The notes beneath the pieces were generated by a model. That model saw only the letters and a program-made list of their open reading frames with translations, did not search any database and had not been told where the DNA came from. Positions 2,038 to 55,586 of a stretch of 64,000 nt of DNA are shown here, piece after piece. Where the stretch lies: assembly GCA_973851085.1 (NCBI GenBank), contig OZ316775.1:248001-312000 (forward strand). Reading direction: 5' to 3'. The translations under genes were made by a program, and so were the position numbers. The first letter of the stretch is position 1. Each line of letters opens with the position of its first letter. This stretch comes from Ptychomitrium polyphyllum (taxonomy: Eukaryota).

Positions 2038-2056
2038 CGCCACGCAGGTCGGAGCC

Positions 2057-26829: not shown

Positions 26830-29453
26830 ATGGGGAATCAGATGGGGTGCTTCTGGGTCGGCGATGCTAAGAAGAAGAAGCCGCGCGTGGTAGGCGGGTT
26901 GCGGAAGCGCGGGGACTGGGAAAATGAGTTGATCGAGCAGCAGGCCTTGGCGATGGCGTTGCAGCAGCAGCACAAGGCACAGCTGCGCTTCGAGCGGAGC
27001 ATGTCCAACCGAGAGGCTGGCCTAGCACCACCCCGGAAGAGCTACTCGGGCAAGACGGGTGGGGGTGGTAGTAGGGAGGAGTTTAAGCGGAGTGCTAGCA
27101 CTCGTGCCCGTCACATTGATGACTTGATGCTCGATCCTCGTCAGTTTCTTAATGGCTCCAAGGTCTGCTCGTCGGTTTTTCTTATCCAGGATTTTCCCTT
27201 CTTCGGACTTTTTCTTGCATGTGGACAATTGTCCACTGTTTTGCAGCTATTCGGCTGTAGGTTAGGGATACTCATCCACCACGTTAAATGAGTTCTACAC
27301 CTTTCCACATCTTGCCACAGTTGCATGAAAGAGAGGGTGCAGTAGTGTCTCTATTCGAATTTCGCTTCTTAACCACCCTCGATTCACATCTGCAACCATT
27401 GAGCAGCAATTTAGGTTGTAGATAGATGTGGTGTGGTTGCCAAACAGGCTGTCTTAGGACGGCTTTGAGGGTTCTTACTTTCGGCATTGTGTAGGATTAA
27501 GTCATATCATAGTGTTATTGGCAATTGTGTATTAGAGAATAATTCGCTCGGAACTCAATCAAATTGTTAGAGTAACTAGGTGTTGCCATGTAAAAGTATG
27601 GCACTCATTTGGCATACTTAGAGCTTGAAACGTTTGGAGTTTAGAAATGCTCCTGAGAGTATGAGACTGCAGCCCTTCAACGTTCTTGCTATTAGAACCT
27701 GGCTATTCCAGGTTTTTGCATGTCATAGTATGGCTGCGTAGGCGAGGGTGTGATGGATACTTCTCGACTTCTTTAGGGTGGTTGAAGCGATGTCCTGGTT
27801 GAATTCGGACTCGTGTGGTCTCAACATAGTGATGTCTTCTTAACCCCTAAGAAGTTTTTAAGATATTTTTGACTGACTAATTAGTGTGGCGTGCAGGACG
27901 GAGTTGTGAAAGCAAGTATTGAAACAAAGCATTTTGTGTTGGTGCATGGAGGGGGCCTCGGAGCATGGTGCTGGTATAAATCTATAGCGTTGCTTGAGGA
28001 GTCAGGGTTGGTGGCTACAGCCATTGACTTGAAGGGGTCGGGTATTGACTCGACGGATCCAAATCATATCAACAGCCTGGCAGTCTACGTTCAGCCGCTT
28101 ACAGACTTTTTAGAGAAGCTGGGATCTGATGAAAAGGTATAATCTTGTTTTTTGAAGTCCTAGCGAGATTGTCAGTTTCAAAGTCGAGAAATTGACCTCG
28201 AAAGTTTGTTTTTTTCCACCAACGTGCTATTTTGTTAGTTCCTACTCACAGAGGTTGTCATAGGAGACAGGCTCTAAGCATAACATTTTCATGGATGTCA
28301 GAACTTGCTAAGGCGTTCAGAGGAGCCTTAAAAAGTTTTTTATTTGATTGGACCTTTCCTCCTCACAGTGGCTTCAATAATGCAGGTTATTCTGGTGGCA
28401 CACAATATCGGGGGAGCTTGTGTATCGTATGCGATGGAGCGCTTTCCCAGTAAAGTGTCGAAGGCAGTCTTCGTGGCTGCCTCTATGATATCAAATGGCC
28501 AGCGGGCGTTTGATGTGTTTGTGCGGCAGGTACTTCCCACTTTCTCCACCCGATTTCTCATCTGCTTACGATATCTTTCGTTAAGGTTTGAATCTGCATG
28601 CATATTTAAACAGGAACAGCATAGTCCCACATGTAGATACACATACAGTATAAGGAAAATATTGCAAAATCGTAGGGTATGTTGTAACTAACCTAAACAT
28701 AACAGTATTTGATTTGGAGTATTGTTGTTTGGTTTCTTTGCTTTCGATCCTTGGTCCGTTTAGCAACATTTATTGCGTGAGTTTCTACAAGAGTGACTTA
28801 GTTTTAACTGGGTTTGAGATGTGGGTAGGAGAAGAGCGAAGACGACTTGATGCCTAAGGCACAGAAATTCTTATACGGAAACGGAGTTTCTAGTGCACCT
28901 ACAGCGGTGGAACTTGACAGAACTTTAATCAAAGATTTGTTCTTCAATGTTAGCCCGGCTAAGGTATTTTTCATGTAACTTTGTTTACTCTTGTGCATTC
29001 TTTGTGTTCTCCTTTGTGCATTCTTTCTGTGAATCTTAAGGATTATATCACAACAATCAAATTGGCAGTTATTGTTGTTTGAGTTAGGATTTGGGAAATC
29101 TGAAAAAGGACCATGTAAGTCACTCGGTCACTCTTGGATCAACCTTAACCTTTTATAAACATATCGTGCAGGATGTAGCCCTAGCAATGGTGTCCATGAG
29201 GCCCATTCCTTTCTCACCAGCTATGGAAAAGATGGAGTTGACCCTTGAGAATTATGGAAGCGTACGGCGTTTCTACATTGAAACAACAGAGGACCAAGCA
29301 CTACCACCAGAATTGCAACGAAACATCATCAACCAAAACCCTCCAGAACAGGTGTTCACTTTGAGAGGCAGCGACCATTCTCCTTTCTTTTCTAAACCTC
29401 AGTCTCTACATAAAATCCTACTTGACATTGCAATGATTGGTGCAAAAAAATAG
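26830..29453 (+). CDS. Methylesterase-family (SABP2/MES11-15-like) alpha/beta hydrolase with N-terminal extension. Exons 26830-27162, 27897-28136, 28386-28529, 28829-28963, 29172-29453.
   Basis: HFVLVHGGGLGAWCWYK, KVILVAHNIGGACVSYAME, YGSVRRFYIETTEDQAL, GSDHSPFFSKPQSL. All four introns are GT-AG in phase 0. N-terminal MGNQMGC and QALAMALQQQH..RFERSMS resemble the MES11/13/14 clade. Confidence 0.92.
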
Positions 29454-38100: not shown

Positions 38101-40077
38101 CGTCCCCAGCATCCCCACCCATGCAGCCCCTGCCACGTCACGACGCCGCAGTCACACAGAGGGGGCTCATCGATGGGCTCCGAGCAACGCCATCGAGTCT
38201 GTGCATGTGCATGGTGTCCAGTACGTAATTGTTCACTTAGTGTGTATTGAATTAATGGCAAACCTTTGCTTAGTGAACATTAAAACAAACTAACAATGTT
38301 GTTGCATACTTACAATTTGAATAAAAATGTGTCATATGGCATTTGAATTCATAGAATTAACAACCTATCATCCTAAATTCCTAATTTTTTTTTTGCTTTT
38401 CAAAATATAAAGTTGCCTAATGCATTAGCATGTTTCTACCACCATCCAAATATAAAACATAATATATATATAAACACATCATTGTTAGCTATTAGAAAGA
38501 TGTTAATTAACACCACAAGATTTTAAGTATCTTGTCTTATTTTCCTAATTTTATTAAACTTTAAAATCCATCATTTTGGAAAACTTAATAATTTTCTTTA
38601 AGACCATGCTTTTATAAAACTTTGGCTAAATGTATGCAAATTTACAAGAACATCTAAGTTACTTATCCAAATTCTGTTATATTTTATATAAGAAACCAAA
38701 TAAGAATTGCACATCAATTAAAAATACAAAACCTGCTAGAAAATCAATTTATAATGAATAATAAGGTGTCACGTGAAGTGACATTGGAGGGCCACATCAC
38801 GTCAATTAGTTTGTTAAATGGACTCTTATAGGAGTCCATGTTATATTTGGATGAGTTTCATCCAAATTTCAAGGCTCATCCACTTTGGGTTTGGTTGTAA
38901 GTAGGAGAAGAGCTTCTTGACTTGACATTGTTGTCAAGTCAAGTCTTGTGAGTGTATTTTTGGAGAAGAAACATATGTTGTTGTTTTATTGTGGCTATGG
39001 TTTTAATAAAGTCTTAAGCTTTCTGCTACATTTGCACTCTTGGATTCTCCCTTTATGAAATGAGAGATAGCTTGACTCTTATGTGAATGATTAATTGCTT
39101 GAGTGTGGAAAAAAATTAAGTTACTTGACAACAATGTTCTCATATTTACTATAGATCTCAAAGTTGAGTTTAAGTAATTGAAGAAAGTTTGTGAGTACTT
39201 ACTATGTTGTTGTAGAGTGCGGTTAGAGAAAGAGAACTCAACAAACGGTGTATGATTTGGACCTAAAATCTTCACATTTCCTAGATTTCAGAATCTTCAT
39301 TTTTGTGGATTTTAGAATCTTCATTTCTGTAGATTTTAGACAGGAGTCCTAAAAGCGTCAAGGACCTAAATTTATCGGGTCCTAAATCCGTCAGGGACCT
39401 AAATCCGTCTCTATACAGCCTCTAATTTCTCAATTACTGCGACTCCATAACTTTTGCAAAAAATGTTATTTTTGAATTTCGTTTGCAGATTTGGGTTCTC
39501 TAGGGGTGAATACATATATTGGGAAAGAAAACTTTTGGTGATAAAAGTTTTTCAAAAATCACATTTTTACGTGTTTGTTTTAAAATAAAAATAAAACTAG
39601 AGTCTAAACTTTGGAGATGGATTGTAAGGATATTTTGACTCAATTTTGAGCAAAATTTGCACATATATTTGGAATTTTAGCCATTTAATCCAATTTTAGT
39701 GTTGGATTGGCTTTGTGGCAAATTGTATTTCCTAGTGTTGCTATTTTCATTGAGAGATTTGTATTTTTGAACACTGCGGCCAAAGTTTCCCACTATCCTT
39801 TTAGTTTAAGATTTGAGATAACACTTTTAGTGTTTTCTTTTGCATTGCAAGTTTTTGCGACTTTGTGGCTATCAGCCGCAGGCATGTGCTACTTGCTCTA
39901 ATCCACTTGCATTTTGCAATTTGTTGTTGGGAAGAAAATCCAGGCTTTGAATTTCTGGTTTTTGTTATGGTATCTTCCCAGGTTGCGAGCATTGTTGCTG
40001 TTGGTTTATAGTGTTGCTCCATTTTGTATTGTCCATTTGTTCTTTAGATAGTTGCAAGTACCCAAGTAGTCATTTTT

Positions 40078-41580
40078 ATGGTGCAGACACGGAGTCGATA
40101 TTATCGATCTCCGTCATTAGACTACTTAAAAGGTGCACACACCAAAGACTTTGAGCTAGCGGTAGATACCAACAAGGCTTTTGAGCCTATTTTGACGTTG
40201 GATACTACTAGTAGGCTTCGGGTTTGGAGTGTCGACACATTTGACGAGATGGATGACGATCCTTGCCATGTCGTAAGGGATCAATTCTCCGGAAGGGCTG
40301 GGGGCATTTTCCTACCCAATTAGAAGCTCAGGTTTTGGACTTGGATGAAAAAGAAGCGCCAGCGGTCTCTGAATTTCAATAACTGGTACGCATTTGAGCT
40401 GTTGCCATAGCATTTGGAGTTTGAGGCACTTTAGACATATGAGGTGTGGACTCATGAGAATGAGCTCCAATTGCGTAAGGTGAAACGCTATTGGGAGGCT
40501 TGTGCGGAGCTCATTTCTGGCCTGAAGGAAGGTGCAGTAGCCAATTTGATCCCTATAATGAAGATAGAAGAGAAGCCTGCAGAAGGGAGTGGCTCATCTT
40601 CCAAAGACACAAAGGACAAGGCTTCGGTAGTGAGTCAATCCTCTGTCACAATATCACAATTGGCGCAAGCTACGCCAGTAGCGTTGTCTGCAATTGATCA
40701 GCCGCCGTTGTTTGAGCCACTTTGCTTGTTCATAGTTCATATGGAGGTTGAGTATGGAGGCTTCAGGCGTGATTAAATGCAACACATCCAAGACTTCTGT
40801 CGGAAGAAGGAAGATATTCCACATACCATGTATATCCAATTGGCGAGGTTTGTAATGGAATCTGGAGGTGTATTTGCAGAGAGTCAGCTTGTCAAGATCT
40901 TTTTGTCCAAGATTGACAAACAACTGTTAGACTTGGCTATACCAAGGGTTATTTTCAACTACCACGGTTGAAAAACGTTGGCTCAAGCATTTACCAAAGT
41001 TGAGATGTGTGATCGATTTCTCTATTAGTACACTGTCAATGATATGGTTTCTTGGATGAGAGATGCTTCCAAGTTCAAAAAGGCTGCTATTGCTACAAGT
41101 AGTTTGGCAAAGACTTAGGCTGAGAAGATTCTCCATTATTGAGGGTGTGGTAAAGCTGGCCATACCAAGAATGATCCTAATTGCCCAAAGAAGAAGAGAG
41201 CTTCAACGTTAGATAAGTCTAAGCAGAGGGCAGATGTGGTTAAGACTGCAGAGAAGGCCAAGAAGAAGCAGTTGAAGTATTCTTATTGTGGCAATCTCAA
41301 TCATGATGATGATCACTGCTTTATTTGACATCCGGAGAAGCAACCTGTTTTGAAAAATAAAAAAGCATTAGAAGCCAAGATTACAGAGTTGGAGAAGAAA
41401 TTCCAGACTATGGCTTCATTGGGTCATGTTACTGACTTTAGAGTGGTTTCTTGGGGTGGAACAAGCACTTCTGCTTCAAATGTTTATATGTTTGGGGCTT
41501 CAAGGGAGATGGTGGCTGCAATTGCCACATGTGCCCAAACAACAGCCAAAATGATGACAACCAACAGAGGTGAATCACAA
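40078..41580 (+). pseudogene. gag of the outer element, with two degenerate CCHC zinc knuckles
   Basis: Fragmented ORFs at 40078, 40444, 40777 and 41350. Knuckles (Y*)GCGKAGHTKNDPNC at ~41137-41184 and YSYCGNLNHDDDHC at ~41278-41319. Many in-frame stops. Confidence 0.75.
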
Positions 41581-42072
41581 TAGAGCGTACGTACGTATCA
41601 TAGTGGTTCATTAGATTAGATTGGCCAAGCCCGGTTGCCATTATCATTTGGCTTGGCAAATGCTAGTTCTGCATGTCGACCAATTCTTCCAGCTTTAGCA
41701 CAAGATGGAGGAACATCTTTTAGAAACTTGGCACACATTTTGGCACACAAGGTGTTGCATATGCCTATTTTCTCCAGTATTGAGTTGACGACACCAAATT
41801 TTCATCCAACTAGGATTTTTCACTTGGTTGGCAAGATATTGGAAGGCAAGGTGGTTATGCCATCTCTTAAAGTGGCTCAAGTAGTCACTAGGCATTCTAC
41901 AAATGAGGATTTGGCTATGTTGCAGGCCAAGCTTGCAGCTAAAGCCATTGCAGCATTTGTTGCAATTACTTTACAGCAAATAAAGCTAAGTCCTTTATTT
42001 GATGAGCCATTGGCTACATGAGTGGCATATTTATCTAACGTTGCAGCTAGGCCTGCTTGAGAATGTCAAAAC

Positions 42073-42459
42073 TTGCAACCAATAGTGGTGCGGCTAGTTA
42101 ATGACAACAATGTACTTGTTATTAGCTCTATTGGTGGCAATGCAACTTGTACTACACCGGTGAGAGTTATTATGGACTTTGGTGCTCAGCCAGTCATGAT
42201 TGGCAAGCGACTTGCTCAAGAGCTAGGTCTAGGTGATGCAGACTTTGAGCCTTGTGCATTTATTATCATCACTTCAGTTGGAGGCACCGAGCATACTACT
42301 GGCTATACTAGACAACCATTGCAATTGATTCTCCGCATAATTTCTGGACCTCTTTATTTACACTTGTCTCTACAATGTACAATAACCACTCCTACCAACT
42401 ATGAAATTTTAATTGATCAGCAGGCACTTTATCCGCTCGGTTTTGGTTTAGACAATTAA
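42073..42459 (+). pseudogene. Aspartic protease of the outer element
   Basis: VIMDFGAQPVMIG corresponds to the retropepsin D[ST]GA motif (TCT>TTT). YEILIDQQAL corresponds to the ILG motif. Confidence 0.75.
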
Positions 42460-42749
42460 ATTGAAGAGGCGTAGATTAAGCTAGGTTGGTCCGCAAGAGA
42501 AAGAAGGAAAGAATTCATTCATGTAGCATTTGCAGCAATTGCCATGACTATGTCGGCAGAGACTTTATTTACTTGCACCGCCTTAGCAGTAGACTTACCT
42601 TGTGGACCTATTCTGCTAAAGGAGAAATTTGCATTATGTCTAGTTCAGTGGAACAACATGGTTTACTACCTTTAGGGGTTCCTGCACAACATTGCAAAGA
42701 TCCATCACTATCTACCTTTGCCCATCCTATTCATTGGCATCCACCAACT

Positions 42750-43465
42750 GAGGGTATTACCCTGGTGGAGCTATTTTCAAGCATTGGTATCGATTTGGCG
42801 GTAGTTTTGGAGGCCGGACTTAAGGTCCGGCGGTACATTCACGTAGATATTGGCTTTGTATCCAATTGAGCAGCCCAACATCACCTCCAAAGGTTATTGC
42901 TTCTATACCCGGAGCAGTTACCTTCATCTGCCATCCGCGCTTGTTTTGGCCAACTCCCTCAAGATATCACTCTCATTAATGATGAGGATTTGAGGAGATT
43001 GGGCCATGTTGACTTATTCATTGTTGGATGGCCTTATTAAAGCCATTCACGTGCCGGAGCAGGTCGAGATTTGGACGACCCCTAGTCAAGTTTATTTGCA
43101 AACTTGATCTGACTCACACACTGGTGGTTTACACACTAAGCTACATCGCTTGTATTGTACACCTCTCCTTGAAGAATGCCCGCAACACTAAGGGCACAAG
43201 GGGGACCCTGGATGGAGGTCCGGGACTTGTGGCGCCGATATTAAAGTGGCCCGAGTAGGCCAACTTTGGAATGCCCAAATTAGAGACATATCCGAGATCT
43301 TTTGCATTCCGAGCATATGGGCCTTGCAGGGTTTGGGATTCACATTCACAAACTCATGAAGAGCCTACTATAGATGAGAGGGAGCGCTATGTAGTTTCTG
43401 ATAGGCACTACAATTGTTCATGATCTCACTAAGGATCAACGTCGCTTTTTTTTGGGCCAAGTTAT
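42750..43465 (+). pseudogene. DNA (cytosine-5)-methyltransferase domain within the outer element's pol. Its C-terminal end continues at 50004-~50070, after the nested insertion.
   Basis: Motif I LVELFSSIG (42762-42788). Motif II-like YIHVD. Motif III-like QDITLI. Motif IV VDLFIVGWPY*SHSRAG (43026-43040, restorable to GWPCQ). Motif V DDP*SSLF. Motif IX EPTIDERER/AM*F. Motif X RRFFLGQ(A)M|DFNTL, split by the insertion. Confidence 0.88.
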
Positions 43466-44036
43466 TGTTAGGGACACAAAAACAAGAAGCAGAAACAAAG
43501 TGTTTCCCACGAATTAGCTTCCAAGGAGCTAATGATTAACAAGAATTTGATACAAAGACTAGAACAAGGCAAGATTCAAGATGATCTACAACTTATATTG
43601 GCAAGACTAAAGACTACCTTGTCTTGCCTCCTATTTATATTATGACGTTTGTATCTCTTAGATTACTTCTAAAAAAGTTGCCTATAAGGCTTAAGAATGT
43701 TCTAGAAGTCTAAGGAACCTTCCCAAGAAATTTTCCAAAGATGTTGGAAGCTTCCTCAGAAGCTTCCAAGGAGTTGAAACCTTCCATGGAAGTTTTCTAA
43801 GATGTTGGAACCTTCCTTGGAGATTCCCTAAGGTGGTAGAATTTTTTAAGGAAGTTTCCTAAGATAATGGAACCTTCCTAGGAAGTTTTCTAAGGTGGAG
43901 GAGCTATCTTAGGAAGCTTCCTAAAAAGATAGAAAGACTATGGAGACATTTAAAAGTATTCTAAGAAGCTATTATAGTATACTAGAAGGTCTTATAATGT
44001 TTTGAGGACTATGTTGCCTGATCTATGTCCGTAACA
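43466..44036 (-). repeat. 3' LTR of the nested chromovirus
   Basis: Direct repeat of 49432-50003. Contains a ~20-30-bp internal array (GGAACCTTCC..GGAAGTTTTCTAAG) at ~43700-43925. Adjacent to the PPT. Confidence 0.95.
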
Positions 44037-44702
44037 TCACCTCCCTATTTAGCGACGAGTCCTATGAAGAACTGTTTCTTTGGCTTGTTTGTCACATTTC
44101 TATCACTTCTAACATTTGTGGAAGGAATGAAGCAACATATTCTGCTCGTTTTTATTTATTCATTGGTTCAACTAGTCCTTGCAAAAAATACCAACAACTT
44201 CCAGCCAAGACTTCTGTTGTTGAAATGTTCCATCTTAAGATTTGATCTTGATTAAGTCCTTCAAAACATCCTCCAAGTAAGATTTCGGGTCCTCTTTGAA
44301 TGACTCGTCCAATTTCTAACAAGATGACTAAAGTACAAGCATCTAAATTAAGACTGGAATGTGAAGGGCATCTAGCCAATACTTTTGCACAAGGTCGTAC
44401 TTGACGTTGGAATGTTCCTTTCATATCTTGGCTTAGATCCTCTGTTTTCAAAGGTTGAGAAAGTTGATTTGGCTCAACAAATGTTGTTGTTGATGAAGGC
44501 ATGGCCGACTGCTCTTCACGCATATCCATAATAACACAAAGATTTGACATGCTAGCTAGGATCTAGAAATGATCTATTTTGGAAATAATATTGTATACAA
44601 TTAGAGGTTTGGATATCTTTCCTCCCTTCTTATACTTGTCTATGAAGGAAAAACTTCTCTATAAAGCTAACAGCTACTGATGATACATCATCACTGACCT
44701 GG

Positions 44703-47700
44703 TTATTGAGGATATCTTTGATGAAATTCGGATACCTTCGCAGATGCATTTGTTACATTCAATGAAGGTTTCCATGTTCGATCATTGATGCCATATCCTT
44801 GCTAATGTATAAAATACTCTACACATCCGTTCTTGATGCGTTAATTCAAGATCTCTTCCACTTCATATTAGATTTCATTATTGATTTCCAACAGAGGAGG
44901 CGGATGGACAATTCTCTCTGGTATACATGATTTGTTATAGCTTTTCAACAACAATACGTGGAATACTGGATGAATTTGCATGCTTGGTAGTGGCTTTAAG
45001 CAATAACTAATCGGATTTATCTATTTGCTGAAATCAAACGGATCCAACCTTTGATAGTTCAACTTCTTTGATGGTCTTTTTGTTTGTATATTTTGTCATA
45101 GGAGCCATACGCTATCTCCAACTTTGAACTCTAAATGATCCTTTCGATGGCGATCTGCATAAGTTTTGTAACAATCTTGAGCTTGTTGTAACTGGGAGGT
45201 AATTTCTTGATGGATTTTAGTAAGTTGAATTGCAAAATCCTTTGCTGCAGGACTTCCAACATGCTTCACTTGAAATGGATCTGCTCGAGGATGATGCCCA
45301 TAGTTTGCAAAGAATGGACTTTGAGTTGTTAAAAAATGCACCGTATTGTTGTAAGCAAAATTTGCCAAAGGCAAGAGATCCATCCAACTGTCTTGTTGGT
45401 AGTTTATGCTACAACAAAGGTACTACTCCAAAATTTGATTCACATATTTGGTTTAACCATCAATTTGCAGATGGTGTGCTAAAAAAAAGTTAATCAATAC
45501 GTGCAACAGCTAGAATAGAGCCTTCCAAAAGTTGGAAATGAACTGCGGCCCTCGATCGGATACAATATCATCTGGTAGTCCATATATGCGGTAGACGTGA
45601 TTTAGAAACAACTTGCCAGTTTCTTCTCCCGTTGCCGTCTTGTTGCATGGAATGAAATATGCCATTTTGGTAAATTAATCCACCACTACCAAAATAGAAT
45701 CCTTAGAATCGGAATTTGAAAGGTCCGTGATAAAATCCATTGATAAAGACAACCATGGACCCTTTGGCACTGGAAGCGGATGGAGGAGACCATGAGATTG
45801 GTGCCTTGGTACCTTGGCTCTTGCACAAGTATTGCATAATCGAATAAAATCCTTCACGTACTTCCACATTTGTGGCCACCAATAGTCTCTTGCAATCAAC
45901 TCCATTGTTTTATTGAATCCAAAATGTCCTGCTGCTGGAAAATCATGACGTGATTGAAGGATCTTCAACCGCAAAGGGCCTAGAGGTAGGTACAAAAGTC
46001 CTTTATAATAAAGTAGGCCCTCTTGGAATTCAAAATCCTCATCGCTATTTGAAGGACCTCCATTATCTTTGAGGCGCTTTTTTATATTTGATACAAAGAC
46101 GTCATTCTTTAAAGCCTTCTGAATTTCGTCAAGATACGATGTTGTCGTTATAATCGTTACTTTCAATTGAAGATTCTCTGGTTTCAATAACATAGTCCTT
46201 TGTTGATTCAAAACATCATCTCCAGGTTGAGGAGCTAAATAAGATCTTCGAGATAAGGCATCTGGCTTACCTTGCAAGCTACCAGATCGGTAGGTAATGA
46301 CAAAGTCAAATCTGGAAAGCGACATACTCCACCTTGCTTGACAGCGATTCAAAACGTGCACACTCATGAAATATTCCAAGTTCTTGTGGTCTGTGTATAT
46401 CGTAATGGTATGTTGAGCTCCTTTGAACAAGTGTCCCCATTCTTCAAACGCATCCACAATTGCAAGTAGTTCTTTATCATGTATATCATAGTTGATCTCT
46501 GCCGCTAAGAACTTCCTTGAACGAAAGACAAGAGGACAAAGTCTCCCGTCTTCATCATATTGTGAGAGTACTGAGCCAAGCGCAAAATCTGAAGCATCCG
46601 CTTCCAAATAAAAAGGCTTTGATGGATTTGGATGAATAAGAATTGGAGCCGACGTGAATGACTTCTTAAGACTTTGAAATGCTTTTTCCGCCTCCTCATC
46701 TCAAATGAAGTTTTGCTTCCCCATAAGACGTATTAATGATGCCGCAATTTTGGAATAATTCTTGATGAATATTCTGTAGAAGTTTGCAAATCCCAAGAAG
46801 CATTAAACATCTCGAATTGATCTTGGCGTATTCCACTCCATGACAGTGCTTATTTTTTTCTTATCCATATGGATTCCTCCTTTGGAAATGATGTAGCCTA
46901 AAAATTCAACCGATGATTCATGGAAAAGGCACTTCTCCAATTTGGCATGTAATCCTCGCTGGGGTAGTTTTTCTAAGACCAATCGCACATGACATTCGTG
47001 GTCTTGTTCATCCTTTGAATATATCAAAATGTCATTCAAGTAGATGACTACAAAATTGTCCAAATGTTCATGGAAGATATCATTCATCATGTATTGGAAG
47101 ACAGTAGGGGCATTAATAAGGCCAAAAGCCATGACATTGTATTCAAAATGACCATACTTAGATCGAAAAGCTGTCTTCCATTTGTCTCCTTCTTTGATGC
47201 GTACAAGATTGTAGGCTCCTCTAAGATCAATTTTGGTGAATATCTTTGCTTGGCCAAGTTGTTGTAGGAGTCCTGAGATTAATGGTAATGGATAGCGATT
47301 CTTTTTTGTTACTTTATTGAGGCCTCGATAGTCCACGCACATACGTAATGATCCATCTTTCTTCTTTACAAATAAAATGGGTGCTCCAGCAGGTGATTTA
47401 GAATGTTGAATGAAACCCTTTCCAAGGTTTTCATCAATATATTCTCTCAAGGCAGCCAACTCAGTTTGTGATAAGTTATAAATAGGTCCAAAAGGTGGTT
47501 GGGCTCCTTCTTGCAACTCAATGGTACAATCGTATGGCCGGTGCTTTGGTAACATGTCCGCATTCTTCTTTTCAAAAACGTCTTTATAATCTTGATATTG
47601 ACGAGATATGTTTGGATTAGTCTCTATTATAGAGCTAGACATTGGTGCGGCATAAATGGTATAAATTAGTTCATGATATACTGCTCTCATGAGTGTTTTA

Positions 47701-48170
47701 GCTCCAATAAATGATGGTCCAAGATTTCTCGTACCTTGGCGTCTTTTCCTTAAGACCATACTCCGTGAGTGCCAATCAATGTTTAGATTATGTAATTCAA
47801 ACCAGGAAAGGCCCGAGACAATAGGACTTGTTCGGCATTAAATGATGTTGAAGACAATCTTAGATGCATGGTCCTCTAAAACAACCTTTAATGGTTGAGT
47901 TTCTTTAATAACGTTGTTAGATGCAAGAGATCGTCTGTCAATAACTTCAACAAGTGCGGGGTATTTTTTGTTCACTAGCACTATGTGATGTTTGGTTGCA
48001 AAATCCTTGTCCATGAAACATGCCGTTGCACCAGTGTCTAATAGAGCCTCACTAACTATTTCATCATTTAACAATTTAATTTTGATAGAAAATGTAAAAC
48101 AAGAGGTAGGGTTTGAAGGTAATAAGAGACCTTGATTTAATGGTCGTTTCCTTCTGGTGTCCAATTGCAT
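44703..48170 (-). pseudogene. pol of the nested chromovirus (PR-RT-RH-INT-chromodomain), with stops and frameshifts
   Basis: ORFs 47838-48170 (PR), 46803-47759 (RT), 45675-46607 (RH and integrase HHCC), 45096-45383 (integrase C-terminal part). Chromodomain YEVEEILN*RIKNGCVEYFIH*QGYGINDRTWKPSLNV at ~44869-44755. Confidence 0.92.
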
Positions 48171-48178
48171 GGTCCCTA

Positions 48179-49195
48179 CTATGACTGGGCAGCTTCATTT
48201 TCCAACTCCAGCATTGTGCTTTGAGCCTTAAAGGTAGTTCTTTTAATTTGGAAATTGCACACTTTATATCCAAACTTGCCACAATACAAATATAGGTTTT
48301 TTCTTTGACGCCTTTCTTTTTCTTCTAGAGCCAAACATCTAAATTGGGCAGCATCAATTTGTGTAGGTTCTGGTCCTTGTGATTGGCTTTCCGATATTCT
48401 TGAAAAAGTGCTAGCCATGTTTTGATGTACTAATTGCCATCCCAAGCATTGTTCTTGGCGCCTTTCAAATAGTCTGTTGTCACATGCTATTGTTTGAGTG
48501 ATGAATTTGTTCAATGTTTCAATTCTTGGCATTGTGAGTATCAAGTCCTTTACATTCTCTCTTAAATTCCATCGGAATTGTTTAACCAAGGCTTTATCAT
48601 TCCAATTAAGGTCGCAAGTTAATTGTCAAAACTCTGCAGCATATGTATTAGCTAAGTGTTGTCTTTGTTGTAGACTTTGAATCCTTGTCTCAGCCCTCCT
48701 CTCTCGGTCGATGTCTCCAAAAATAGATGTCAATGCTTCTATGAAAGCATCTAAGTTGTTTAATAATGGTGACTGCTTTTCCATTAATAGTACAAACTAC
48801 GATAGTGCATTGTTTATTAAAAAAGTGGCTACAAATCCCACTTGAGTTGTGCCATTAAGATAGCAAGATGGATGCAAACTAAGGAAGAACCTTAGTTGTT
48901 GGGCAAAGCCTCTTAATTTTGATCTTGATCCATTGAATTTGGCCGGCATGCAAATCTTTGGCTTTGTATGGGTTTGACGTAAGCCTTCTCTTCCAATATT
49001 GGCCTCTTACAATCAAACAACCTCTTCATATAGGCTTTGAATATCACAATTGGCTTTTTTAGCTTGCCGAGTGTGTTGCTTCAAATTATTGGTAATGTTG
49101 AAGCAAGCAAGTTCCGTTCAAACTGTGTTTAATAACTCTTGAAGGTCTGCAATAGTTGCAAATCTATTCTCTAATGTTCCAGACACGTTATCCAT
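48179..49195 (-). pseudogene. gag of the nested chromovirus
   Basis: ICMPAKFNGSRSKLRGF, QFRWNLRENVKD, GPEPTQID, and a degenerate knuckle LYLYCGKFGYKVCNF. Stop at 48181-48179. Confidence 0.85.
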
Positions 49196-49431
49196 TTCTT
49201 AAGACTATAAAAAACAAGAAGACTATGAGTACTTTCAAAAGAGGGTAATCCACGTCCTTTAAAAGAAATAATACTTAGTTCTAGAAGAAAAAACCAACTT
49301 TATGGTGCCAGCTTAGAGGAGGGTAATCCGCAACCTCTAAGACGCTATGGAATCCTAAAGAAGACAGGTAATCTATAATCTTCTTCAAAGAACCTTAGCT
49401 CTGACAAAGATGAAGAGTATTCTTGCCAAAC

Positions 49432-50003
49432 TATTAGGGATACAAGAAACAAGAAGCAAAAACAAAGTGTTTCCCAAGAATTAGCTTCCAAGGAGCTAAT
49501 GATTAATAAGAACTTGATACAAAGACTAGAACAAGGCAAGATTCAAGATGATCTACAACTTATATTGGCAAGACTAAAGACTACCTTGTCTTGCCTCCTA
49601 TTTATATTATGACGTTTGTATCTCTTAGATTACTTCTAAACAAGTTGCCTATAAGGCTTAAGAATGTTCTAGAAGTCTAAGGAACCTTCCCAAGAAGTTT
49701 CCTAAGATGTTGGAACCTTCCTTGGAAATTTCCTAAGGTAGCGAAACTTTCTTAGGTAGTTTCCTAATGAAATAAAACCTTCTTAGAAAGTTTTCCAAGG
49801 TGGTGGAACTTTTTAAGGAAGTTTCCTAAGATGATAGAACCTTCCTAAGAAGTTTTCTAAGATGGAGGAGCTTTCTTAGGAAGCTTTCTAAGAATATAGA
49901 AAGGCTATGGAGACATTTAAAAGTATTCTAAGAAGCTATTATAGTATACTAGAAGGTTCTATAAAGTTCTAAGGACTATGTTGCATGATCTATGTCTGTG
50001 ACA
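49432..50003 (-). repeat. 5' LTR of the nested chromovirus, with TATA box
   Basis: Copy of 43466-44036. Minus-strand ATATAAATAG at 49607-49598. Confidence 0.95.
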
Positions 50004-50479
50004 ACTATAGACTTCAACACTTTGGTGTAGGTTTTTGGCATATCTCTTGTTGTCCAACAACATCATGATGGCCATTTGCTTTTCCTTAGGTCAGAGAGCA
50101 ATGGTCAGGGGGCAATAGAGCCAAAACTTAGTGAGGTTGAGGAATTTGTGTTAGTTTTTTGCTTGAAATGGCATGCAACAAAAGAGCTACGGGCTCAATG
50201 CGTTTTTTGTTGCTTTGGCATAAGACTTTGGAAAAGCAGATGCCCAAGAGATATTTTCACAGCTCTTTTTGCAAGGTACTCCATATCCTGGTGAAACCGC
50301 CATCTCACACATGGATGATGGTAGTGAAGCTCCTCATTTGGCTTCTAGTAAAGATGATGGAAGCATGGAAGTTGTTTCTGCCACAGATTAGCGGTTAGAG
50401 GCCGTGTTGGTTTATAGTGGTTCTCAATTGGCAAAGAAAGAGACCAAAGAGTTTGATGATTGGCCATTGGAATTAGGGC

Positions 50480-53400
50480 CACATCTTATAGGTGCGGAAG
50501 CACAAAGGATACGAGATTTTATCTACTTGTATTGCAATTGTTATGCCTTTAGTTTCAACGACCTTGATGGCTATAGAAGCAAACTCATTCACATTTAGTT
50601 GGAGGATGATCATCCAATCTTTCGACGGCCTTACAAATTGAGTGCTTCAGAAAAAATTGGTGTTTAAACTCGTTGTCAAGAGTTATGAGCTGCAAGTTTG
50701 ATTGAGATCTCCAATGAAGAGTATGCTTGTGTCTTAGTGATGCCTTCTAAGAAAGATATATTTGGCAAGTGGATAGAAAATTGGATGTGTGGAGATTACC
50801 ATCCAATTAATCAAAAGACTAAGTCAGACCGGTATCCAATGCTAAAGCCAGAGGAGCTATTTGATGCAGTTGGATTCTCTTGAGGTTTCAGCACTTTGAA
50901 CTTGCAATCTGGCTATCACCAATTGCCATTGTTTGTGGAAGACCAAGTGAAGACAGTATTTTGGAGAATTAATCAAGATTACAAGGATCAACTCTATCAT
51001 TGGAAGTTTCTTTCATTTGGCCTGAAGAATGCACTAGCTAAGTTTTAGAGGTTGATGGACCGGATCTTGATTGGCTTACCATTTGCTAGATGCTACATTG
51101 ATGATGTTATCATCTTTAGTAGTAGCCCACAAGAGCATAAGAAGCATTTACAGACAGTGTTTGAGCGATTACGGCAATGGAGATTGCGCTTACACCATGG
51201 CAAGTGTAAATTCTTCCACGACTAATTACCATACTTGGGCCACATGATTTTTCCATGAGATTTGGGCGTGCAGCAAGCAAAGGTAGATGCTTTGCAAAGG
51301 ATTCCAGCTCCTATCAATGTGTCATGGCTTTGAGCTTTTCTTGGCTTGGCAAATTTCTATCGCAAATTTGTCATGAACTTCAGCTTAATTGCAAAGCCTT
51401 TAACCACTCTTACGGGCAAGGACTAGCCATGGACTTGGAGTTGTGAGCAGTAACAGGCATTCGATATGTTGAAGCAAAGGTTGGATTTAGCTCCAGTGCT
51501 TTGACGTCCAGATGCTACTAGACCGTTTCAATTGCATACAGACTAGAGTGCAGTAGATTGGAAGCGGTTTTGGCACAGAAGGATGATGTTGGGCAGGATT
51601 ATGTCATTGCATTTGCTTTTAGAAGCAATAACAATGCGGAGTCCAACTACTCATCTTATGAGGGGAAGCCTTGGCAATAGTTTGGGCCATTGCTCACTTC
51701 CAACCTTATTTATACGGGCAACGGTTTACATTGGTGACTGTCCATCAACCTTTGAAGTGGCTAATGGAGTCAAACAAAACTGTTGGCAAGCTTGCTAGAT
51801 GGGCATTGTTGCTTCAAGAGTATGACTTTGAGGTTGTACATCGAGCAGGCCTCATCAATTTGGACGCGAATGGATTTTTCCGCAATCCAAGTCTTTCAAA
51901 TTAGGACTTGATTAGAGCCAGATGGCATGGAGATTGCAATAGAGAGGCAGTGCCTGGGAGGCATGCGGTAGCATATCTTACTTTGATATCAGGCTCAACA
52001 CATGAGGTGTCTAATCAAGGCTTAGATGAAGAACTTGACAGAATCCAAGTTGTTGGCGATGTGTGGGAGGACCTTGCGGTCTTGCACAAGCTTCAACAAG
52101 GATCATTTCCTTTAGCTATCTCTGCTATAGAGCACAACAGGATTAGTCACTGAGTAGCAAGATTCCGTTGGGATAATGGCTTGCTATTTTGTGTGTGGCC
52201 GGATGGAGCTAGGTGCATAGTTCTAAGGCCAAATTAGAGAGCTTCCTTAGTGCAGCAAGTGCACAAGGACCTTGGACATTTTGGAGTGCGCAGAATACAT
52301 TCTATGTTGCGCAGTCAATATTGGTGGACTAGCATATATCAACAGGTTGCCATATATGTTTCTTGGTGTGAGGTGTGTGACTAAGTTAGGTCCAATTTTA
52401 ACACCTTATCACCTCAGTTGAGACCTTTATCCATCATGGATTTGGGCTACCATTGGTCTTTAGACATTGTTGGGCCACTTGTTGTCATTCCACGTGGAGC
52501 TAAATACATGTTGGTGATGGTGGAGCATTTTAGCAAGTAGATTGAATTTGTGGCTCTACCACAAAATTCTTCCGAGTTGGCAGCCATGGCATTTCTTGAT
52601 CGCGTCTTGGCACATTTTGAAGCACCTGCTGAGGTGTTAACTGATCAAAGGAGAGAGTTTATTGGATCTTTTGAGGCTTTGTGTTCTAAGGCTTTGATTG
52701 ATCATTGTACAATGTCCAAAGATCACCCTGAGGCAGATGGCTTGGCTAAACGGGTTGTTCAGACCGTAAAGCGTGAATTACGGAAGTATGGATTGTTTCA
52801 TGGCAACCATCCTGATTGGAACTTGATGTTACCGTGGATTGCAATGGGTTACTGCTTTAGCAAGCAAGGATCTTTGGCTTCTTACAGTTATTACCAATTA
52901 TTATATAGACGGGAGCTAAACCTACCTAGCTCAGTGCGTGAGAAGTTGGCTCCAGTTGTGGACTTGGATGACCCTAATATTTAGGCTCAATGTCCACACG
53001 ATTGAGAAAAATTCTTCAAGAGGGCTATGCCTATGGCAATGGAGAACTTAGCTATTGCTCAACATTGTGATAATTTACGATATGCTTGTATCCATAGTAA
53101 AGCTTATTGACCTCAGTTGCAAAGATTCTCTAAGGAAAATTATGTGTATCTGCAACGTGAGGCTTCTACAACACTTGATGTTAAGGCGGGGCGCACAATT
53201 CTTTGTGTGAAGGATGTGTTACCTAGTGGTATCTTGTTGCTTGAAGACAAAAATGGACGAGAGTGTCGGAAGCATTCAAAGAATTGTGTTCCATGTCATC
53301 TTCCTATTGATGGTTCTGTACATTCTGAGCTAGCGGTTGTGCCAGATGGCCTTCTTTGTTTTGTATGTCGTGAGAAGAAAAGAGCTGCTACCATGTTATT

Positions 53401-53500
53401 GTGTGACAAATGCCAACGTAGATGGAACATGGCATGTTTGATATCACCCCTTTCAACTCTACCTTCTGGAGATTGAATTTGGCCTTGTTGTCGGAAGTCT
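50480..53500 (+). pseudogene. RT-RNase H-integrase-PHD portion of the outer element's pol
   Basis: RT: MCGDYHPINQKTKSDRYPM, YIDD at 51094-51105. RNase H: FQLHTD*SA, LAIVWAIAHFQPYLYGQRF. Integrase: HKDLGHFG..WCEVC, WSLDIVGPL, VLTDQRREF, HPEADGLAKR. PHD finger at 53357-53491. Confidence 0.92.
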
Positions 53501-55466
53501 TCCAACCATTTGTCAAATGGTGACAAGAGTTGAGGACTTCTTGGAAGTTTGCCACATGTTTTTGTATTGAAGTTGCCATTCAGCTGGTAGATATAAGTCA
53601 TTGGTTCAATGCTAAGCATTAAGAGAAGTTGATCAAGGGATTCAACATCCAAAATCATTGAAGGCGATTAAAAATGGGGCTCATATTGCATCCCGCCTAT
53701 AATCTTTTAGTTATTTCTCCACTCAATTGCTTGATCCTTTGTATTTGCAACAATACCAACATGGATGTGTACAAGTATTGCAGCAACATTATCATGGCGA
53801 TCATCCACAATAACGTATGTGTTTGTTCCTAGCTGATTGGAGGGACTCCTTATTTGCGAGGGGGGGAACTTGAAGGTGTGTTTGTTATGCATTTGGGTTT
53901 GGTTTTGATTTTATATTTGATTATTGATGCTCACACTCAATTTGTTGTGTGTAACGATCTTTGTTTACACGACTGCTGTTACGTAAAGTAACATCAGAGG
54001 GCCACATCACGTCAATTAGTTTGTTAAATGGACTCCAGTAGGAGTCTATGTTAGATTTGAATGAGTTTCATCCAAATTTCAAGGTTCATCCATCTAGGGT
54101 TTAGTTGTAAGTAGAGAATAACTTCTTGACTTGACATTATTATCAAGTCAAGTCTTGTGAGTGTATTTTTGGAAGAGGAAACTTATGTTATTGCTTTATT
54201 GTGGCTATGGTTCAGTAGCCTTTAATAAAGTCTTGAGTTCCCTCCTATACTTGCACTCTTGGATTCTCCCTTTATGAAGTGAGAGATAGCTTGATTCTTT
54301 TGTGAATGATTAGTTTCTTGAGTGTGGAGAGAAATTAGGTTCTTGAGGATGTGCTTGTTATGCATTTGGATTTGGTTTTGATTTCATATTTGATGATTAA
54401 TGCTGGCACTCGATTTGTTGTATGTGACAATCTTTGTTTATACAACAAAGGTGTTTTTTATAGAAAGTATGTGTAATGGCTTTGAAAGAAGCTCTATTAA
54501 AGCCCAAGTCCAATATACATTTAAAAATCGTTCTAAAAGAAGTAGAGAATTTAAAATAACAATGAATTAGATTTATAATAGAAGCAAATTAAAACAACAT
54601 AATGACTATAAACCATAGAAGAAATGGCACTTGAATACAATTAGTATTGTTAGAATAGATGACGATGTTATATTGGTAGTATTTAAGAAATAAAAGTGCA
54701 AAGCAAACAACATCAACATTTATAGCCTTTTGTATTGAAGATTATCAAACACATTTTAAATATATATGTTTAATATTCACATTTGAATACATTTATTAAT
54801 TATATTAAATATATTTTGAATATACTTTATTACATAATTAAAAATATAATGGATCCACCAAATAAAGCATTGTATTTTATAACCCATGGCATCAAGTGCA
54901 AAATCAATAAAAAGAACATATTTTTTATTCTTTCACATAAATTTGTATAAAAATTGTATTAGTACTTGTATTTTGAATACAATCTAATACATGTGTTTTG
55001 ATTCAAAGTACATACATATGCTAAAATATTGAAGTGTCATTTTTACTCTATACTAAATTATAATATTTTCTTTGCTAAATTCCATTAAATATGATAAAGC
55101 TTATGAGTGAAAATTGTATGATATTCAAAAGAACAAAGATACTTCCAATTTCCTAAGAATTATAAATTATTACATATTTTTAATGGCTTAATTTTGCAAT
55201 CATAATTTAAGATATTATAGTAGATATCATGCATCCTAATGTTCTCAATTTTAACTATAGGTATGGCAATATTGGTGCTAGTAGAGCCTTGCAAAATTTC
55301 TATATGCACATCATATATCATAACATATATCAAATGGTAGAAAGAGTATCATTGAACTTTATAACTTAGGAATTTTCAATACAAAAGTGGATCCTTCAAT
55401 TGCATGTATTTTTGTACTACATTATTTAACTGAAACAATTCTCAATCAAAGAGCACCTCAAACTTA

Positions 55467-55586
55467 ACAATACATTAATTTTTTTAATAGAAACATAGTG
55501 GTTGCTGGGATTTGCAAGTGTATGTGACAATACATTAATTTTTTTAATAGAAACATAGTGGTTGCTGGGATTTGCAAGTGTATGTG
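55467..55586. repeat. Perfect 60-bp tandem duplication
   Basis: ACAATACATTAATTTTTTTAATAGAAACATAGTGGTTGCTGGGATTTGCAAGTGTATGTG x2. Confidence 0.95.

What the first reader, a model, noticed from the sequence alone, without database searches (positions are those of the whole stretch)
53357..53491. Integrase of the DNMT-bearing element ends in a PHD finger (reader plus writer in one polyprotein)
Seen: CFVCREKKRAATMLLCDKCQRRWNMACLISPLSTLPSGD*IWPCC, in frame after the integrase. It matches the C4HC3 PHD pattern CxxC..LLCDxC..(H)xxCL.PPL..P.G.W.C..C, with the His, the Trp and one Cys decayed. Established: PHD fingers of this type read the histone H3 N-terminal tail. Chromoviruses use a chromodomain at this position to target integration. 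Inference: PHD plus C5-MTase parallels the ADD(PHD-like)+MTase logic of DNMT3, suggesting chromatin-targeted integration coupled to self-methylation.
Basis: partly seen in the sequence, partly recalled or inferred. Interest (0 to 1): 0.8.

Follow-up and report, generated by a model that had tools for sequence, protein, structure and literature searches.

The report
PHD-tipped integrase of Gypsy-DNMT3 retrotransposon
The stretch is the worn-out remnant of a genuine PHD zinc finger at the tail of the integrase of a dead plant jumping gene that also carries a DNA methyltransferase; in intact relatives the finger likely steers new insertions towards silent chromatin, and the element is a variant of a kind already described.

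Summary
It is the last domain of the RT-RNase H-integrase frame of an old, dead Ty3/gypsy element. That element has 86%-identical LTRs, at least 44 in-frame stops and a nested gypsy insertion, and it sits in a non-seed land plant.

Intact relatives carry a complete C4HC3 PHD at the same place (44.6 bits). It is the terminal domain of ORF2 and is under purifying selection (dN/dS about 0.04-0.08). It is closest to solved PHDs that bind the unmodified H3 tail (BHC80, BAZ2A, ATXR5, UHRF1, DPF).

PHD and a DNMT3-like methyltransferase go together: 30 of 41 informative metagenome loci, and 32 of 36 long representatives of the wider clade.

In this family the two are not in one ORF. The DNMT ends a gag-protease-DNMT ORF1, which is separated from ORF2 by one conserved in-frame UAG/UAA followed by CAR. 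Only a readthrough product would hold both domains.

The kind (Gypsy-DNMT3 of Klebsormidium; PHD as a transposon accessory domain) is in print. I found neither the land-plant branch, its ORF layout nor the pairing described in text. Histone binding, integration targeting and self-methylation remain inferred.

The parts
38767..39128 (+). 5' LTR of the outer (PHD- and DNMT-bearing) gypsy element
   Evidence: Direct repeat with 53977-54346, 86.3% over 372 columns. Starts with TGT in both copies. Target-site duplication not resolved.
40078..42456 (+). Decayed gag with zinc knuckle (41143-41325) and protease (42061-42456), the first part of ORF1
   Evidence: tblastn with intact ORF1 protein P0023 residues 1-853 at 69% identity, 15 in-frame stops. 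Weak Pfam zf-CCHC_4 and Asp_protease_2 hits, both below cut-off.
42582..43466 (+). DNMT3-like C5-methyltransferase remnant, 5' part (motif I 'VELFSSIG', motif IV 'GWPY'), end of ORF1
   Evidence: tblastn with P0023 836-1228 and with the P0021 DNMT 740-881 (34%, E 2.5e-11). No Pfam hit on the decayed frames. Intact relatives hit PF00145.
43480..50003 (-). Nested, younger ordinary Ty3/gypsy element that splits the DNMT region
   Evidence: LTR pair 43480-44036 / 49447-50003, 97% over the 259-nt family D2. PR, RT, RNase H, integrase and SH3_Tf2-1 on the minus strand. L001 is colinear across the gap, 43465 to 50002.
50007..50388 (+). DNMT remnant, 3' part, and C-terminal tail of ORF1
   Evidence: tblastn with P0023 1228-1354.
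50389..50391 (+). In-frame TAG between ORF1 and ORF2 (candidate readthrough stop; next codons CGG TTA here, CAG TTA in intact L001)
   Evidence: a stop at the same place in 17 loci (14 TAG, 3 TAA), followed by CAA in 16 and CAG in 1.
50392..51247 (+). Start of ORF2 and reverse transcriptase, decayed
   Evidence: tblastn with P0001 5-384 at 78%, 12 in-frame stops. RVT_1 E 3.6e-12 on 51049-51222.
51522..51901 (+). RNase H
   Evidence: PF17917 E 1.1e-17 and 1.7e-5 on two frames.
52238..52981 (+). Integrase: H2C2 zinc domain (52238-52381) and catalytic core
   Evidence: PF17921 E 2.8e-14; rve E 2.2e-4, below cut-off.
53111..53356 (+). Integrase C-terminal region leading into the PHD
   Evidence: Same open frame as the PHD. 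85% identical to P0001.
53357..53491 (+). Decayed PHD finger (the finding): 6 of 8 zinc ligands kept, His to Asn, Trp to stop, seventh ligand Cys to Trp
53492..53533 (+). Last 13 codons and TGA stop of ORF2
   Evidence: The PHD is the terminal domain.
53977..54346 (+). 3' LTR of the outer element

Best explanation
The stretch is the decayed PHD zinc finger that ends the RT-RNase H-integrase reading frame of a dead Gypsy-DNMT3-type LTR retrotransposon. In intact relatives this finger likely tethers the integrase to nucleosomes through the histone H3 tail, most probably one unmodified at K4, which is the job chromodomains do for chromoviruses.

Shown:
- The finger is a real, complete C4HC3 PHD in intact copies.
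- It is always the last domain of ORF2 and is under purifying selection.
- It is paired with a DNMT3-like methyltransferase whose catalytic motifs are conserved.
- In this land-plant family the methyltransferase sits at the end of a gag-protease-DNMT ORF1.
- ORF1 is followed by one conserved in-frame UAG/UAA-CAR stop and then by ORF2.

Inferred:
- ORF2 would be made by stop-codon readthrough. The DNMT would then be produced at Gag level and the integrase-PHD at a much lower level.
- The PHD would guide the pre-integration complex to chromatin lacking H3K4 methylation, that is silent or non-promoter regions.
- The DNMT would methylate the element's own new DNA, as de Mendoza et al. 2018 proposed for retrotransposon DNMTs.

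The window's own copy is long dead and does none of this.
For: 1. Identity. Pfam PHD on the window frame. Intact P0001 has RT 124-282, RNase H 345-474, IN_H2C2 611-664, rve 683-776 and PHD 986-1030 (44.6 bits, E 1.4e-11, profile 1-47 of 47). L001 and L002 have an uninterrupted ORF2 of 1047 aa ending 4-20 codons after the last Cys.

2. Constancy. 68 of 80 metagenome loci give a PHD tblastn hit. Of the other 12, 8 are cut by the contig end, 1 holds a decayed PHD and 3 break off inside the integrase C-terminus. No locus shows an intact integrase tail without the finger.

3. Selection. All eight ligands are invariant in 9 relatives down to 39% identity. Over the 45 PHD codons, L001 vs L002 has 7 non-synonymous against 19 synonymous differences (dN/dS 0.04); L001 vs L005 gives 0.08.

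4. Class. The best sequence matches in the PDB are CHD4, PHF12, PHF21A/BHC80 (E 3e-13), UHRF1, DPF2, KAT6A, KDM5 PHD1, ATXR5 and AIRE. The PHD part of the AlphaFold model has pLDDT 75-85. It superposes on BHC80 2puy (rmsd 1.3 over 55), on BAZ2A/B PHDs solved with unmodified H3K4 peptides, on ATXR5 5vab (rmsd 1.0, 45% identity), and on UHRF1 and DPF2/3. No ING, BPTF or TAF3 entry is among the rows listed, ranks 1-50.

5. Pairing with DNMT. Order GAG-PR-DNMT-RT-RH-IN-PHD in 30 of 41 loci that reach 4300 nt upstream of the PHD. The 11 without a DNMT all lack the RT N-terminus as well, so they are 5'-truncated. In the wider clade, 32 of 36 representatives with more than 900 residues before the PHD have the DNMT.

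6. DNMT type and state. Closest solved relatives are DNMT3A/B/C (E 4e-8), ahead of M.HhaI at 1e-4. PCQ and ENV motifs are kept in 13 of 13 family proteins, and motif I in 12 of 13; the 13th is N-terminally cut.

7. Leaky stop. DNMT and RT are in the same frame in 18 of 22 locus comparisons. A stop lies at a fixed place in 17 loci plus the window, in the context UAG CAG UUA (L001), UAG CAA UCA (L002) and UAG/UAA CAA CCC (15 loci). The UAG-CAR-YYA readthrough motif of tobacco mosaic virus is recalled, not looked up.
Against: - No binding, integration-site or activity data exist for this family; all function is by likeness.
- In the loop between the second and third Cys, UHRF1, DPF, KAT6A and ATXR5 carry acidic residues that contact H3 (recalled). 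The land-plant family has GEKKGAAT or GSKGGAAH there. Only the distant P0021 and P0022 keep acidic residues. The binding mode, or even the ligand, may therefore differ.
- Outside the PHD the structural model is poor (mean pLDDT 54.9).
- No convincing conserved RNA structure follows the stop (consensus -3.25 kcal/mol). In 15 of 17 loci the context is CAA CCC, which is not the full CAR-YYA motif. Readthrough is untested.
- After protease cleavage, DNMT and integrase-PHD would be separate proteins, so the parallel with ADD plus MTase is loose.
Confidence: 0.6

Rival explanations
1. The PHD does not guide integration. It serves the element's methyltransferase: in the uncleaved readthrough polyprotein, or in a complex, it would bring or license the DNMT on H3K4-unmethylated nucleosomes, as ADD does for DNMT3. 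The inserted copy, or its surroundings, would then be methylated after integration.
For: PHD and DNMT are paired in 30 of 41 loci and 32 of 36 representatives. In the distant type both lie in one ORF. The PHD resembles unmodified-H3 readers. The DNMT is of DNMT3 type.
Against: The PHD is always fused to the integrase C-terminus, never to the DNMT. It kept that place when the DNMT changed position between the two element types. In this family a stop codon and the protease separate the two.
Confidence: 0.15
2. The finger reads a different mark (methylated H3K4, another histone site) or a non-histone partner. It would then direct integration to active chromatin, or serve nuclear import or assembly.
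For: The acidic H3-contact loop of the closest solved PHDs is not kept in the land-plant family (contacts recalled). PHD fingers are versatile (PMC6673714, passage read).
Against: No H3K4me3 reader appears among the rows listed for the fold search, ranks 1-50, or near the top of the sequence matches. The residue two places before the ligand His is Gly in all members; BPTF/ING-type readers carry their cage Trp there (recalled).
Confidence: 0.15
3. The match is chance, or the remains of a host exon lying next to the element and not part of it.
For: The window hit is only 0.1 bit above the Pfam cut-off, and two ligands are missing.
Against: The same domain stands at the same place and in the same frame in intact ORFs and in 68 of 80 loci. 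It lies inside the LTR pair.
Confidence: 0.01

Closest known systems
KnitGypsy-Dnmt3 ('Gypsy-DNMT3') of the charophyte Klebsormidium nitens (de Mendoza et al. 2018, PMC5890265; passages read)
   Same: A Ty3/gypsy-type element with a DNMT3-related, intron-less methyltransferase in its coding region, under purifying selection. The DNMT of this family is 38% identical over 347 residues (E 2e-59) to that of the RT-RH-DNMT-IN-PHD protein P0021, which is far closer than either is to DNMT3A.
   Different: Here the host is a land plant. The DNMT lies between protease and RT at the end of ORF1, not inside Pol, and a leaky-looking stop separates it from RT-RH-IN-PHD. The words PHD, Marchantia, liverwort and moss do not occur in the paper's main text, nor PHD in its held supplements. 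Its figures are not held, so a PHD drawn in Fig. 4c cannot be excluded. Whether P0021 is from Klebsormidium is unknown.
Chromoviruses (chromodomain at the integrase C-terminus; Gao et al. 2008, as cited in PMC6673714)
   Same: A histone-reader module fused to the very end of a gypsy integrase. For chromoviruses it is shown to direct integration to heterochromatin.
   Different: No Pfam chromodomain hit was found in P0001, P0007, P0021 or P0022. Targeting is untested.
[quoted passage not shown] 2005), Chlamys Penelope-like elements, Rehavkus (as cited in PMC6673714 and PMC8557442; passages read, original papers not held)
   Same: PHD as a recurrent accessory domain of mobile elements, proposed to read chromatin.
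   Different: Different element classes or positions. No pairing with a DNMT is reported in those passages.
EpiLTRs (bioRxiv 10.64898/2026.05.21.726589; passages read)
   Same: LTR elements that assemble several epigenetic domains (DAM, DNMT, chromodomain) in one unit.
   Different: That preprint names Gypsy-DNMT3 of streptophytes only as a separate earlier case.
DNMT3A/B with their ADD domain
   Same: A zinc-finger reader of the H3 tail unmethylated at K4, combined with a DNMT3-type catalytic domain (established knowledge, recalled).
Solved PHD fingers BHC80/PHF21A (2puy), BAZ2A/B, ATXR5 (5vab), UHRF1, DPF2/3, KDM5 PHD1
   Same: Best sequence and fold matches, 36-49% identity and rmsd 0.7-1.5 over 46-55 columns. 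Several were solved with unmodified H3 peptides according to the entry titles.
   Different: The loop between Cys2 and Cys3 is not acidic in the land-plant family.

Membership tests
PHD finger (Pfam PF00628) | Score at or above the curated gathering threshold | tested here: met
   Window frame 24.1 bits against 24, a marginal and truncated match. Intact relatives score 29.8-44.6 bits over profile 1-47.
PHD finger (Pfam PF00628) | Eight zinc ligands Cys4-His-Cys3 with canonical spacing | tested here: not met
   The window copy keeps 6 of 8 and has an in-frame stop, so it is a dead remnant. The feature is met in relatives: 33 of 80 loci have an uninterrupted C-x2-C-x11-C-x2-C-x4-H-x2-C-x14-C-x2-C.
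PHD finger (Pfam PF00628) | PHD fold | tested here: met
   AlphaFold model of the L001 tail has pLDDT 75-85 over the finger. Foldseek rmsd is 0.7-1.5 to many solved PHDs.
Readers of the unmodified H3 tail (H3K4me0-type PHD) | Binding to H3 1-10 that is abolished by K4 methylation | not testable with these tools
   Likeness only. The acidic contact loop is not conserved.
Ty3/gypsy LTR retrotransposon | LTR pair and Pol order PR-RT-RNase H-IN | tested here: met
   LTRs 86.3% identical; domain order. Target-site duplication, PBS and PPT not resolved.
Gypsy-DNMT3 retrotransposons | DNMT3-related C5-MTase encoded within the element's own coding region | tested here: met
   Intact L001 ORF1 holds gag, PR and DNMT.
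Gypsy-DNMT3 retrotransposons | [quoted passage not shown] | tested here: not met
   In this family the DNMT precedes RT and ends ORF1, ahead of an in-frame stop. The distant type P0021 has it between RNase H and integrase.
Chromovirus | Chromodomain at the integrase C-terminus | tested here: not met
   A PHD takes its place; no chromodomain hit.
Programmed stop-codon readthrough (TMV type, UAG-CAR-YYA; recalled) | Conserved in-frame stop with the CAR-YYA context | tested here: inconclusive
   The stop is conserved in 17 loci, always followed by CAR. YYA follows in L001 and L002 only; the other 15 have CCC. No conserved downstream structure. Readthrough itself is untested.

The most novel reading that the evidence does not exclude
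A large, old clade of green-lineage gypsy elements carries its own two-part 'DNMT3 kit': an H3-tail-reading PHD on the integrase and a DNMT3-type methyltransferase. With it the element picks H3K4-unmethylated chromatin and methylates itself on arrival. In land plants (bryophyte-grade hosts) the methyltransferase has moved into the gag-protease ORF ahead of a leaky stop. It is therefore made in Gag amounts and probably packaged into the particle with the cDNA. This would overturn the printed view that land plants lack transposon-encoded DNA methylases.
Probability: 0.25. Interest if true: 0.75.

Novelty: new variant of a known kind. Interest (0 to 1): 0.5.

Why it matters
**If the reading holds.** These elements would be a natural case of a parasite carrying both a chromatin reader and a DNA-methylation writer. 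It is directly testable: peptide arrays, insertion-site maps, a readthrough reporter, and methylation assays in yeast as done for the Symbiodinium elements.

**Host range.**
- It extends DNMT-bearing retrotransposons from a charophyte alga to land plants.
- The family is abundant and apparently alive. The 90% cluster of P0001 has 226 members, many of them full length at 1043 aa. There are 399 representative clusters at E below 1e-30.

**Practical point.** Intact copies are filed in public databases as proteins of cyanobacterial metagenome bins. This is likely plant DNA contaminating those bins.

**The window's own copy.** It is an ordinary dead insertion.

Tried and rejected
- **Own genome:** none is held, so family members had to be found through protein and metagenome searches.
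- **Earlier scan notes:** look-ups by place and by sequence gave nothing.
- **Sequencing runs:** names are coded and no RNA holder is listed. I laid no reads.
- **RNA structure after the ORF1 stop:** no convincing consensus.
- **Target-site duplication and exact LTR ends of the outer element:** not resolved.
- **Pfam on the decayed DNMT frames of the window:** no hit at E up to 0.1. The domain was recognised only through relatives.
- **Pfam on the 110-500 aa tails after the PHD in the distant type:** nothing at E up to 0.5.
- **Structural model outside the PHD:** low confidence, so it was not interpreted.
- **Papers not held:** Perez-Alegre et al. 2005 could not be opened. What I say of REM1 rests on citing passages.
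- **Literature:** None returned a text describing a PHD-tipped, DNMT-bearing gypsy element in bryophytes. Figures and bioRxiv supplements are not held and may bear on this.
- **Chance match or neighbouring host exon:** rejected.
- **ESM Atlas:** the nearest clusters are PHD-bearing proteins of Chlorophyta and Streptophyta. An integrase-plus-PHD cluster in molluscs scored 0.77. These are leads only.
Full report
**What is at the coordinates**

The 121-codon open frame that contains it (53111-53473) hits Pfam PHD (PF00628) at E 3.7e-5. The score is 24.1 bits against a cut-off of 24, over profile positions 1-33 of 47, and the match ends at the in-frame TGA. This was the only PHD hit among the 69 plus-strand frames scanned in that call.

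Upstream on the same strand lie decayed remains of several domains:
- reverse transcriptase (RVT_1, E 3.6e-12)
- RNase H (E 1.1e-17)
- the integrase zinc domain (E 2.8e-14)
- the integrase core (rve, E 2.2e-4, below cut-off)

**The element around it**

- A direct repeat, 38767-39128 and 53977-54346, is 86.3% identical and frames the whole unit.
- Inside it, on the minus strand, a second and younger gypsy element is nested at 43480-50003. Its LTRs are 97% alike over a 259-nt stretch, and it has ordinary PR, RT, RNase H, integrase and SH3 domains.
- The outer element is dead. Against intact relatives its ORF1 shows at least 23 in-frame stops and several frame changes. Its ORF2 shows 21 stops and two frame changes.
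- The host is a land plant. The window holds a plant-specific eIF-4B gene, CAND1/TIP120 and an alpha/beta hydrolase.
- The best named relatives of the eIF-4B exon are liverworts (Calypogeia, Riccia) and a lycophyte, at 48-54% identity. That search covered only proteins of 519 residues or more.
- No whole genome is held for the window.

**Intact relatives**

A search with the 121-aa frame among longer proteins gave 22 hits, and 20 of them carry a precomputed PHD domain.
- The closest, P0001 (1043 aa, 85% identical), has RT, RNase H, integrase zinc domain, integrase core and a full PHD at residues 986-1030. The PHD scores 44.6 bits, E 1.4e-11. P0007 has the same layout.
- P0001 aligns to window 50416-53530 at 78-86% through the stops.
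- Fragments occur in Marchantia polymorpha and Calypogeia fissa.

A metagenome scan with an alignment of these tails found 110 relatives, of which 80 loci were kept.
- L001 (9317 nt) is colinear with the window element at 75-87% nucleotide identity, 82-87% over the long coding segments. The colinearity holds on both sides of the nested insertion.
- L001 is intact. ORF1 runs 976-5085 (1369 aa) and ORF2 runs 5086-8229 (1047 aa). L002 has the same ORF2.

**The finger is constant, terminal and constrained**

- 68 of 80 loci give a PHD hit. Of the other 12, eight end before the finger could appear, one holds a decayed finger and three break off within the integrase C-terminus.
- The frame always stops 4-20 codons after the last Cys.
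- 33 of 80 loci keep an uninterrupted C4HC3 with identical spacing.
- In an alignment with 9 relatives down to 39% identity, all eight ligands are invariant. Only the window copy departs: His to Asn, the conserved Trp to a stop, and the seventh ligand Cys to Trp.
- Over the 45 PHD codons, L001 and L002 differ at 7 non-synonymous and 19 synonymous positions (dN/dS 0.04). L001 against L005 gives 0.08. Comparisons between subfamilies give 0.2-0.3 with saturated dS.

**What sort of PHD**

By sequence, the intact finger is closest to solved PHDs of the following proteins:
- CHD4, PHF12, BHC80/PHF21A
- UHRF1, DPF2, KAT6A
- KDM5 PHD1, KMT2D, ATXR5
- ORC1b and AIRE

An AlphaFold model of the L001 tail is poor overall (mean pLDDT 54.9) but good over the finger (75-85). 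That part superposes on these entries:
- BHC80 (rmsd 1.3 over 55 columns)
- BAZ2A/B PHDs solved with unmodified H3K4 peptides
- ATXR5 (rmsd 1.0, 45% identity)
- UHRF1, DPF2/3, KDM5B PHD1 and CHD5 PHD2

No ING, BPTF or TAF3 entry is among the rows listed, ranks 1-50. By recall, these nearest neighbours read the unmodified H3 tail.

Two cautions apply, both resting on recalled structures:
- The acidic residues that UHRF1, DPF, KAT6A and ATXR5 carry between the second and third Cys are replaced by GEKKGAAT or GSKGGAAH in the land-plant family. P0021 and P0022 keep acidic residues there.
- The position two before the ligand His is Gly in all members. BPTF/ING-type H3K4me3 readers carry their cage Trp at that position.

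**The methyltransferase and its pairing with the finger**

- The window frames at 42582-43466 and 50007-50388 hold DNMT remnants: 'VELFSSIG' for motif I and 'GWPY' for the PCQ motif. These are split by the nested element.
- A search with the read-through frame (one X at the TGA) found 14 proteins, 13 of them with PF00145. Seven are 1330-1354 aa long, and the ones I read are gag, zinc knuckles, protease and DNMT in one frame.
- The catalytic PCQ and ENV motifs are kept in 13 of 13 family proteins, and motif I in 12 of 13.
- The closest solved enzymes are DNMT3A, 3B and 3C (E about 4e-8), ahead of M.HhaI at 1e-4.
- Among the 41 loci that reach at least 4300 nt upstream of the finger, 30 show GAG-PR-DNMT-RT-RH-IN-PHD in that order. 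The 11 without a DNMT also lack the N-terminal part of RT, so they are truncated copies.

**Two reading frames and a leaky-looking stop**

- In L001, L002 and the window, ORF1 and ORF2 are in the same frame, separated by a single TAG.
- DNMT and RT share a frame in 18 of 22 locus comparisons. A stop lies at a fixed distance before RT in 17 loci: 14 TAG and 3 TAA.
- The following codon is always CAA or CAG. The contexts are UAG CAG UUA in L001, UAG CAA UCA in L002 and UAG/UAA CAA CCC in the other 15. The window has CGG UUA.
- The first two contexts fit the tobacco-mosaic-virus-type readthrough motif UAG-CAR-YYA (recalled).
- No conserved downstream RNA structure was found.

I infer that ORF2 is made by readthrough. 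Gag-protease-DNMT would then be the abundant product and RT-RH-IN-PHD the rare one.

**The wider clade**

- A profile of the integrase tail plus finger finds 399 representative clusters at E below 1e-30 and 1918 below 1e-10. At E below 0.001 there are 11497, but many of those will be unrelated PHD proteins.
- Of the best 150, 36 have more than 900 residues before the finger. Of these, 32 have the family's DNMT about 830-860 residues upstream of it, between RNase H and integrase. P0021 has this layout too.
- The four without it include ORF2-only proteins of the land-plant type.
- The DNMTs of the two layouts are 38% identical over 347 residues (E 2e-59). This is far closer than either is to DNMT3A, so I infer one transposon-borne ancestor whose position later changed.
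- Many of the distant proteins carry 110-500 further residues after the finger with no family match.

**Comparison with what is known**

- de Mendoza et al. 2018 (PMC5890265, passages read) describe KnitGypsy-Dnmt3 in Klebsormidium nitens. Its DNMT3-related domain sits in the Pol ORF and is under purifying selection, and the authors propose self-methylation of new copies.
- The words PHD, Marchantia, liverwort and moss do not occur in that paper's main text. PHD does not occur in its held supplements. Its figures are not held.
- A 2026 preprint mentions 'Gypsy-DNMT3' of streptophytes only in passing.
- A 2019 opinion paper states that land plants lack transposon-encoded methylases.
- PHD fingers are known accessory domains of transposons: CR1, REM1, Chlamys and Rehavkus.
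- Chromoviruses use a C-terminal chromodomain for targeting.
- Two earlier reports of this scan, from other genomes, reached the same reading. They are not independent evidence.

**Verdict**

The window copy is a dead, ordinary insertion.

The family is a land-plant variant of a described kind. Three points were not found in print:
- the constant pairing of PHD and DNMT
- the DNMT inside the gag-protease ORF
- the conserved in-frame stop

Function is inferred from likeness and position only. That covers reading of the H3 tail, integration targeting, readthrough and self-methylation.

Noticed in passing
window 50392-53530 compared with L001 and L002: Substitutions private to the window copy are strongly biased. 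There are 100 G>A and 79 C>T against 90 of all other kinds. 29% of ancestral CG-context C/G sites are hit, 12.6% of other C/G sites and 4.9% of A/T sites. The L001 lineage shows no such bias. This looks like deamination of methylated cytosines in CG and non-CG contexts after the copy was silenced.
   Followed up: partly
window 43480-50003 (minus strand): A younger ordinary Ty3/gypsy element (LTRs 97% alike over a 259-nt stretch; PR, RT, RNase H, integrase, SH3_Tf2-1) is nested inside the DNMT region of the outer element.
   Followed up: partly
window 53869-53973 and 54342-54446: A 105-nt segment occurs on both sides of the 3' LTR (86% alike). It has no copy near the 5' LTR. It may be the trace of a rearrangement or of a second, lost copy; unexplained.
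   Followed up: partly
P0057 and P0026 (clusters of P0001 and of the DNMT): Intact family proteins are filed in public databases as proteins of an 'uncultured Synechococcales cyanobacterium' and of a 'Candidatus Obscuribacterales' metagenome bin. Given the plant-type retrotransposon content, these are likely plant contigs mis-binned into bacterial genomes.
   Followed up: no
P0021 residues 1645-1768 and the tails of P0186, P0193, P0212 and others: The distant RT-RH-DNMT-IN-PHD relatives continue for 110-500 residues after the PHD with no Pfam match. By eye the P0021 tail has the look of a small beta-barrel reader (Tudor- or chromo-like); untested.
   Followed up: partly
P0009 (Marchantia polymorpha MARPO_0060s0038): This gene model runs from the integrase tail and PHD into a stretch with the DNMT motif 'VWPCQ'. 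It is probably a chimeric model across decayed element copies.
   Followed up: no
P0268 residues 1184-1223: One distant family member has a G-patch domain (E 2.7e-7) between the DNMT and the integrase.
   Followed up: no
window 55467-55586: Two perfect tandem copies of a 60-nt AT-rich unit lie just downstream of the element (family D7).
   Followed up: no
window 2033-3982 (+), 10555-18177 (-), 27885-28688 (+): Host genes: plant-specific eIF-4B in two GC-rich exons (65% GC over 2001-4000), CAND1/TIP120 in many small exons, and an alpha/beta hydrolase.
   Followed up: no
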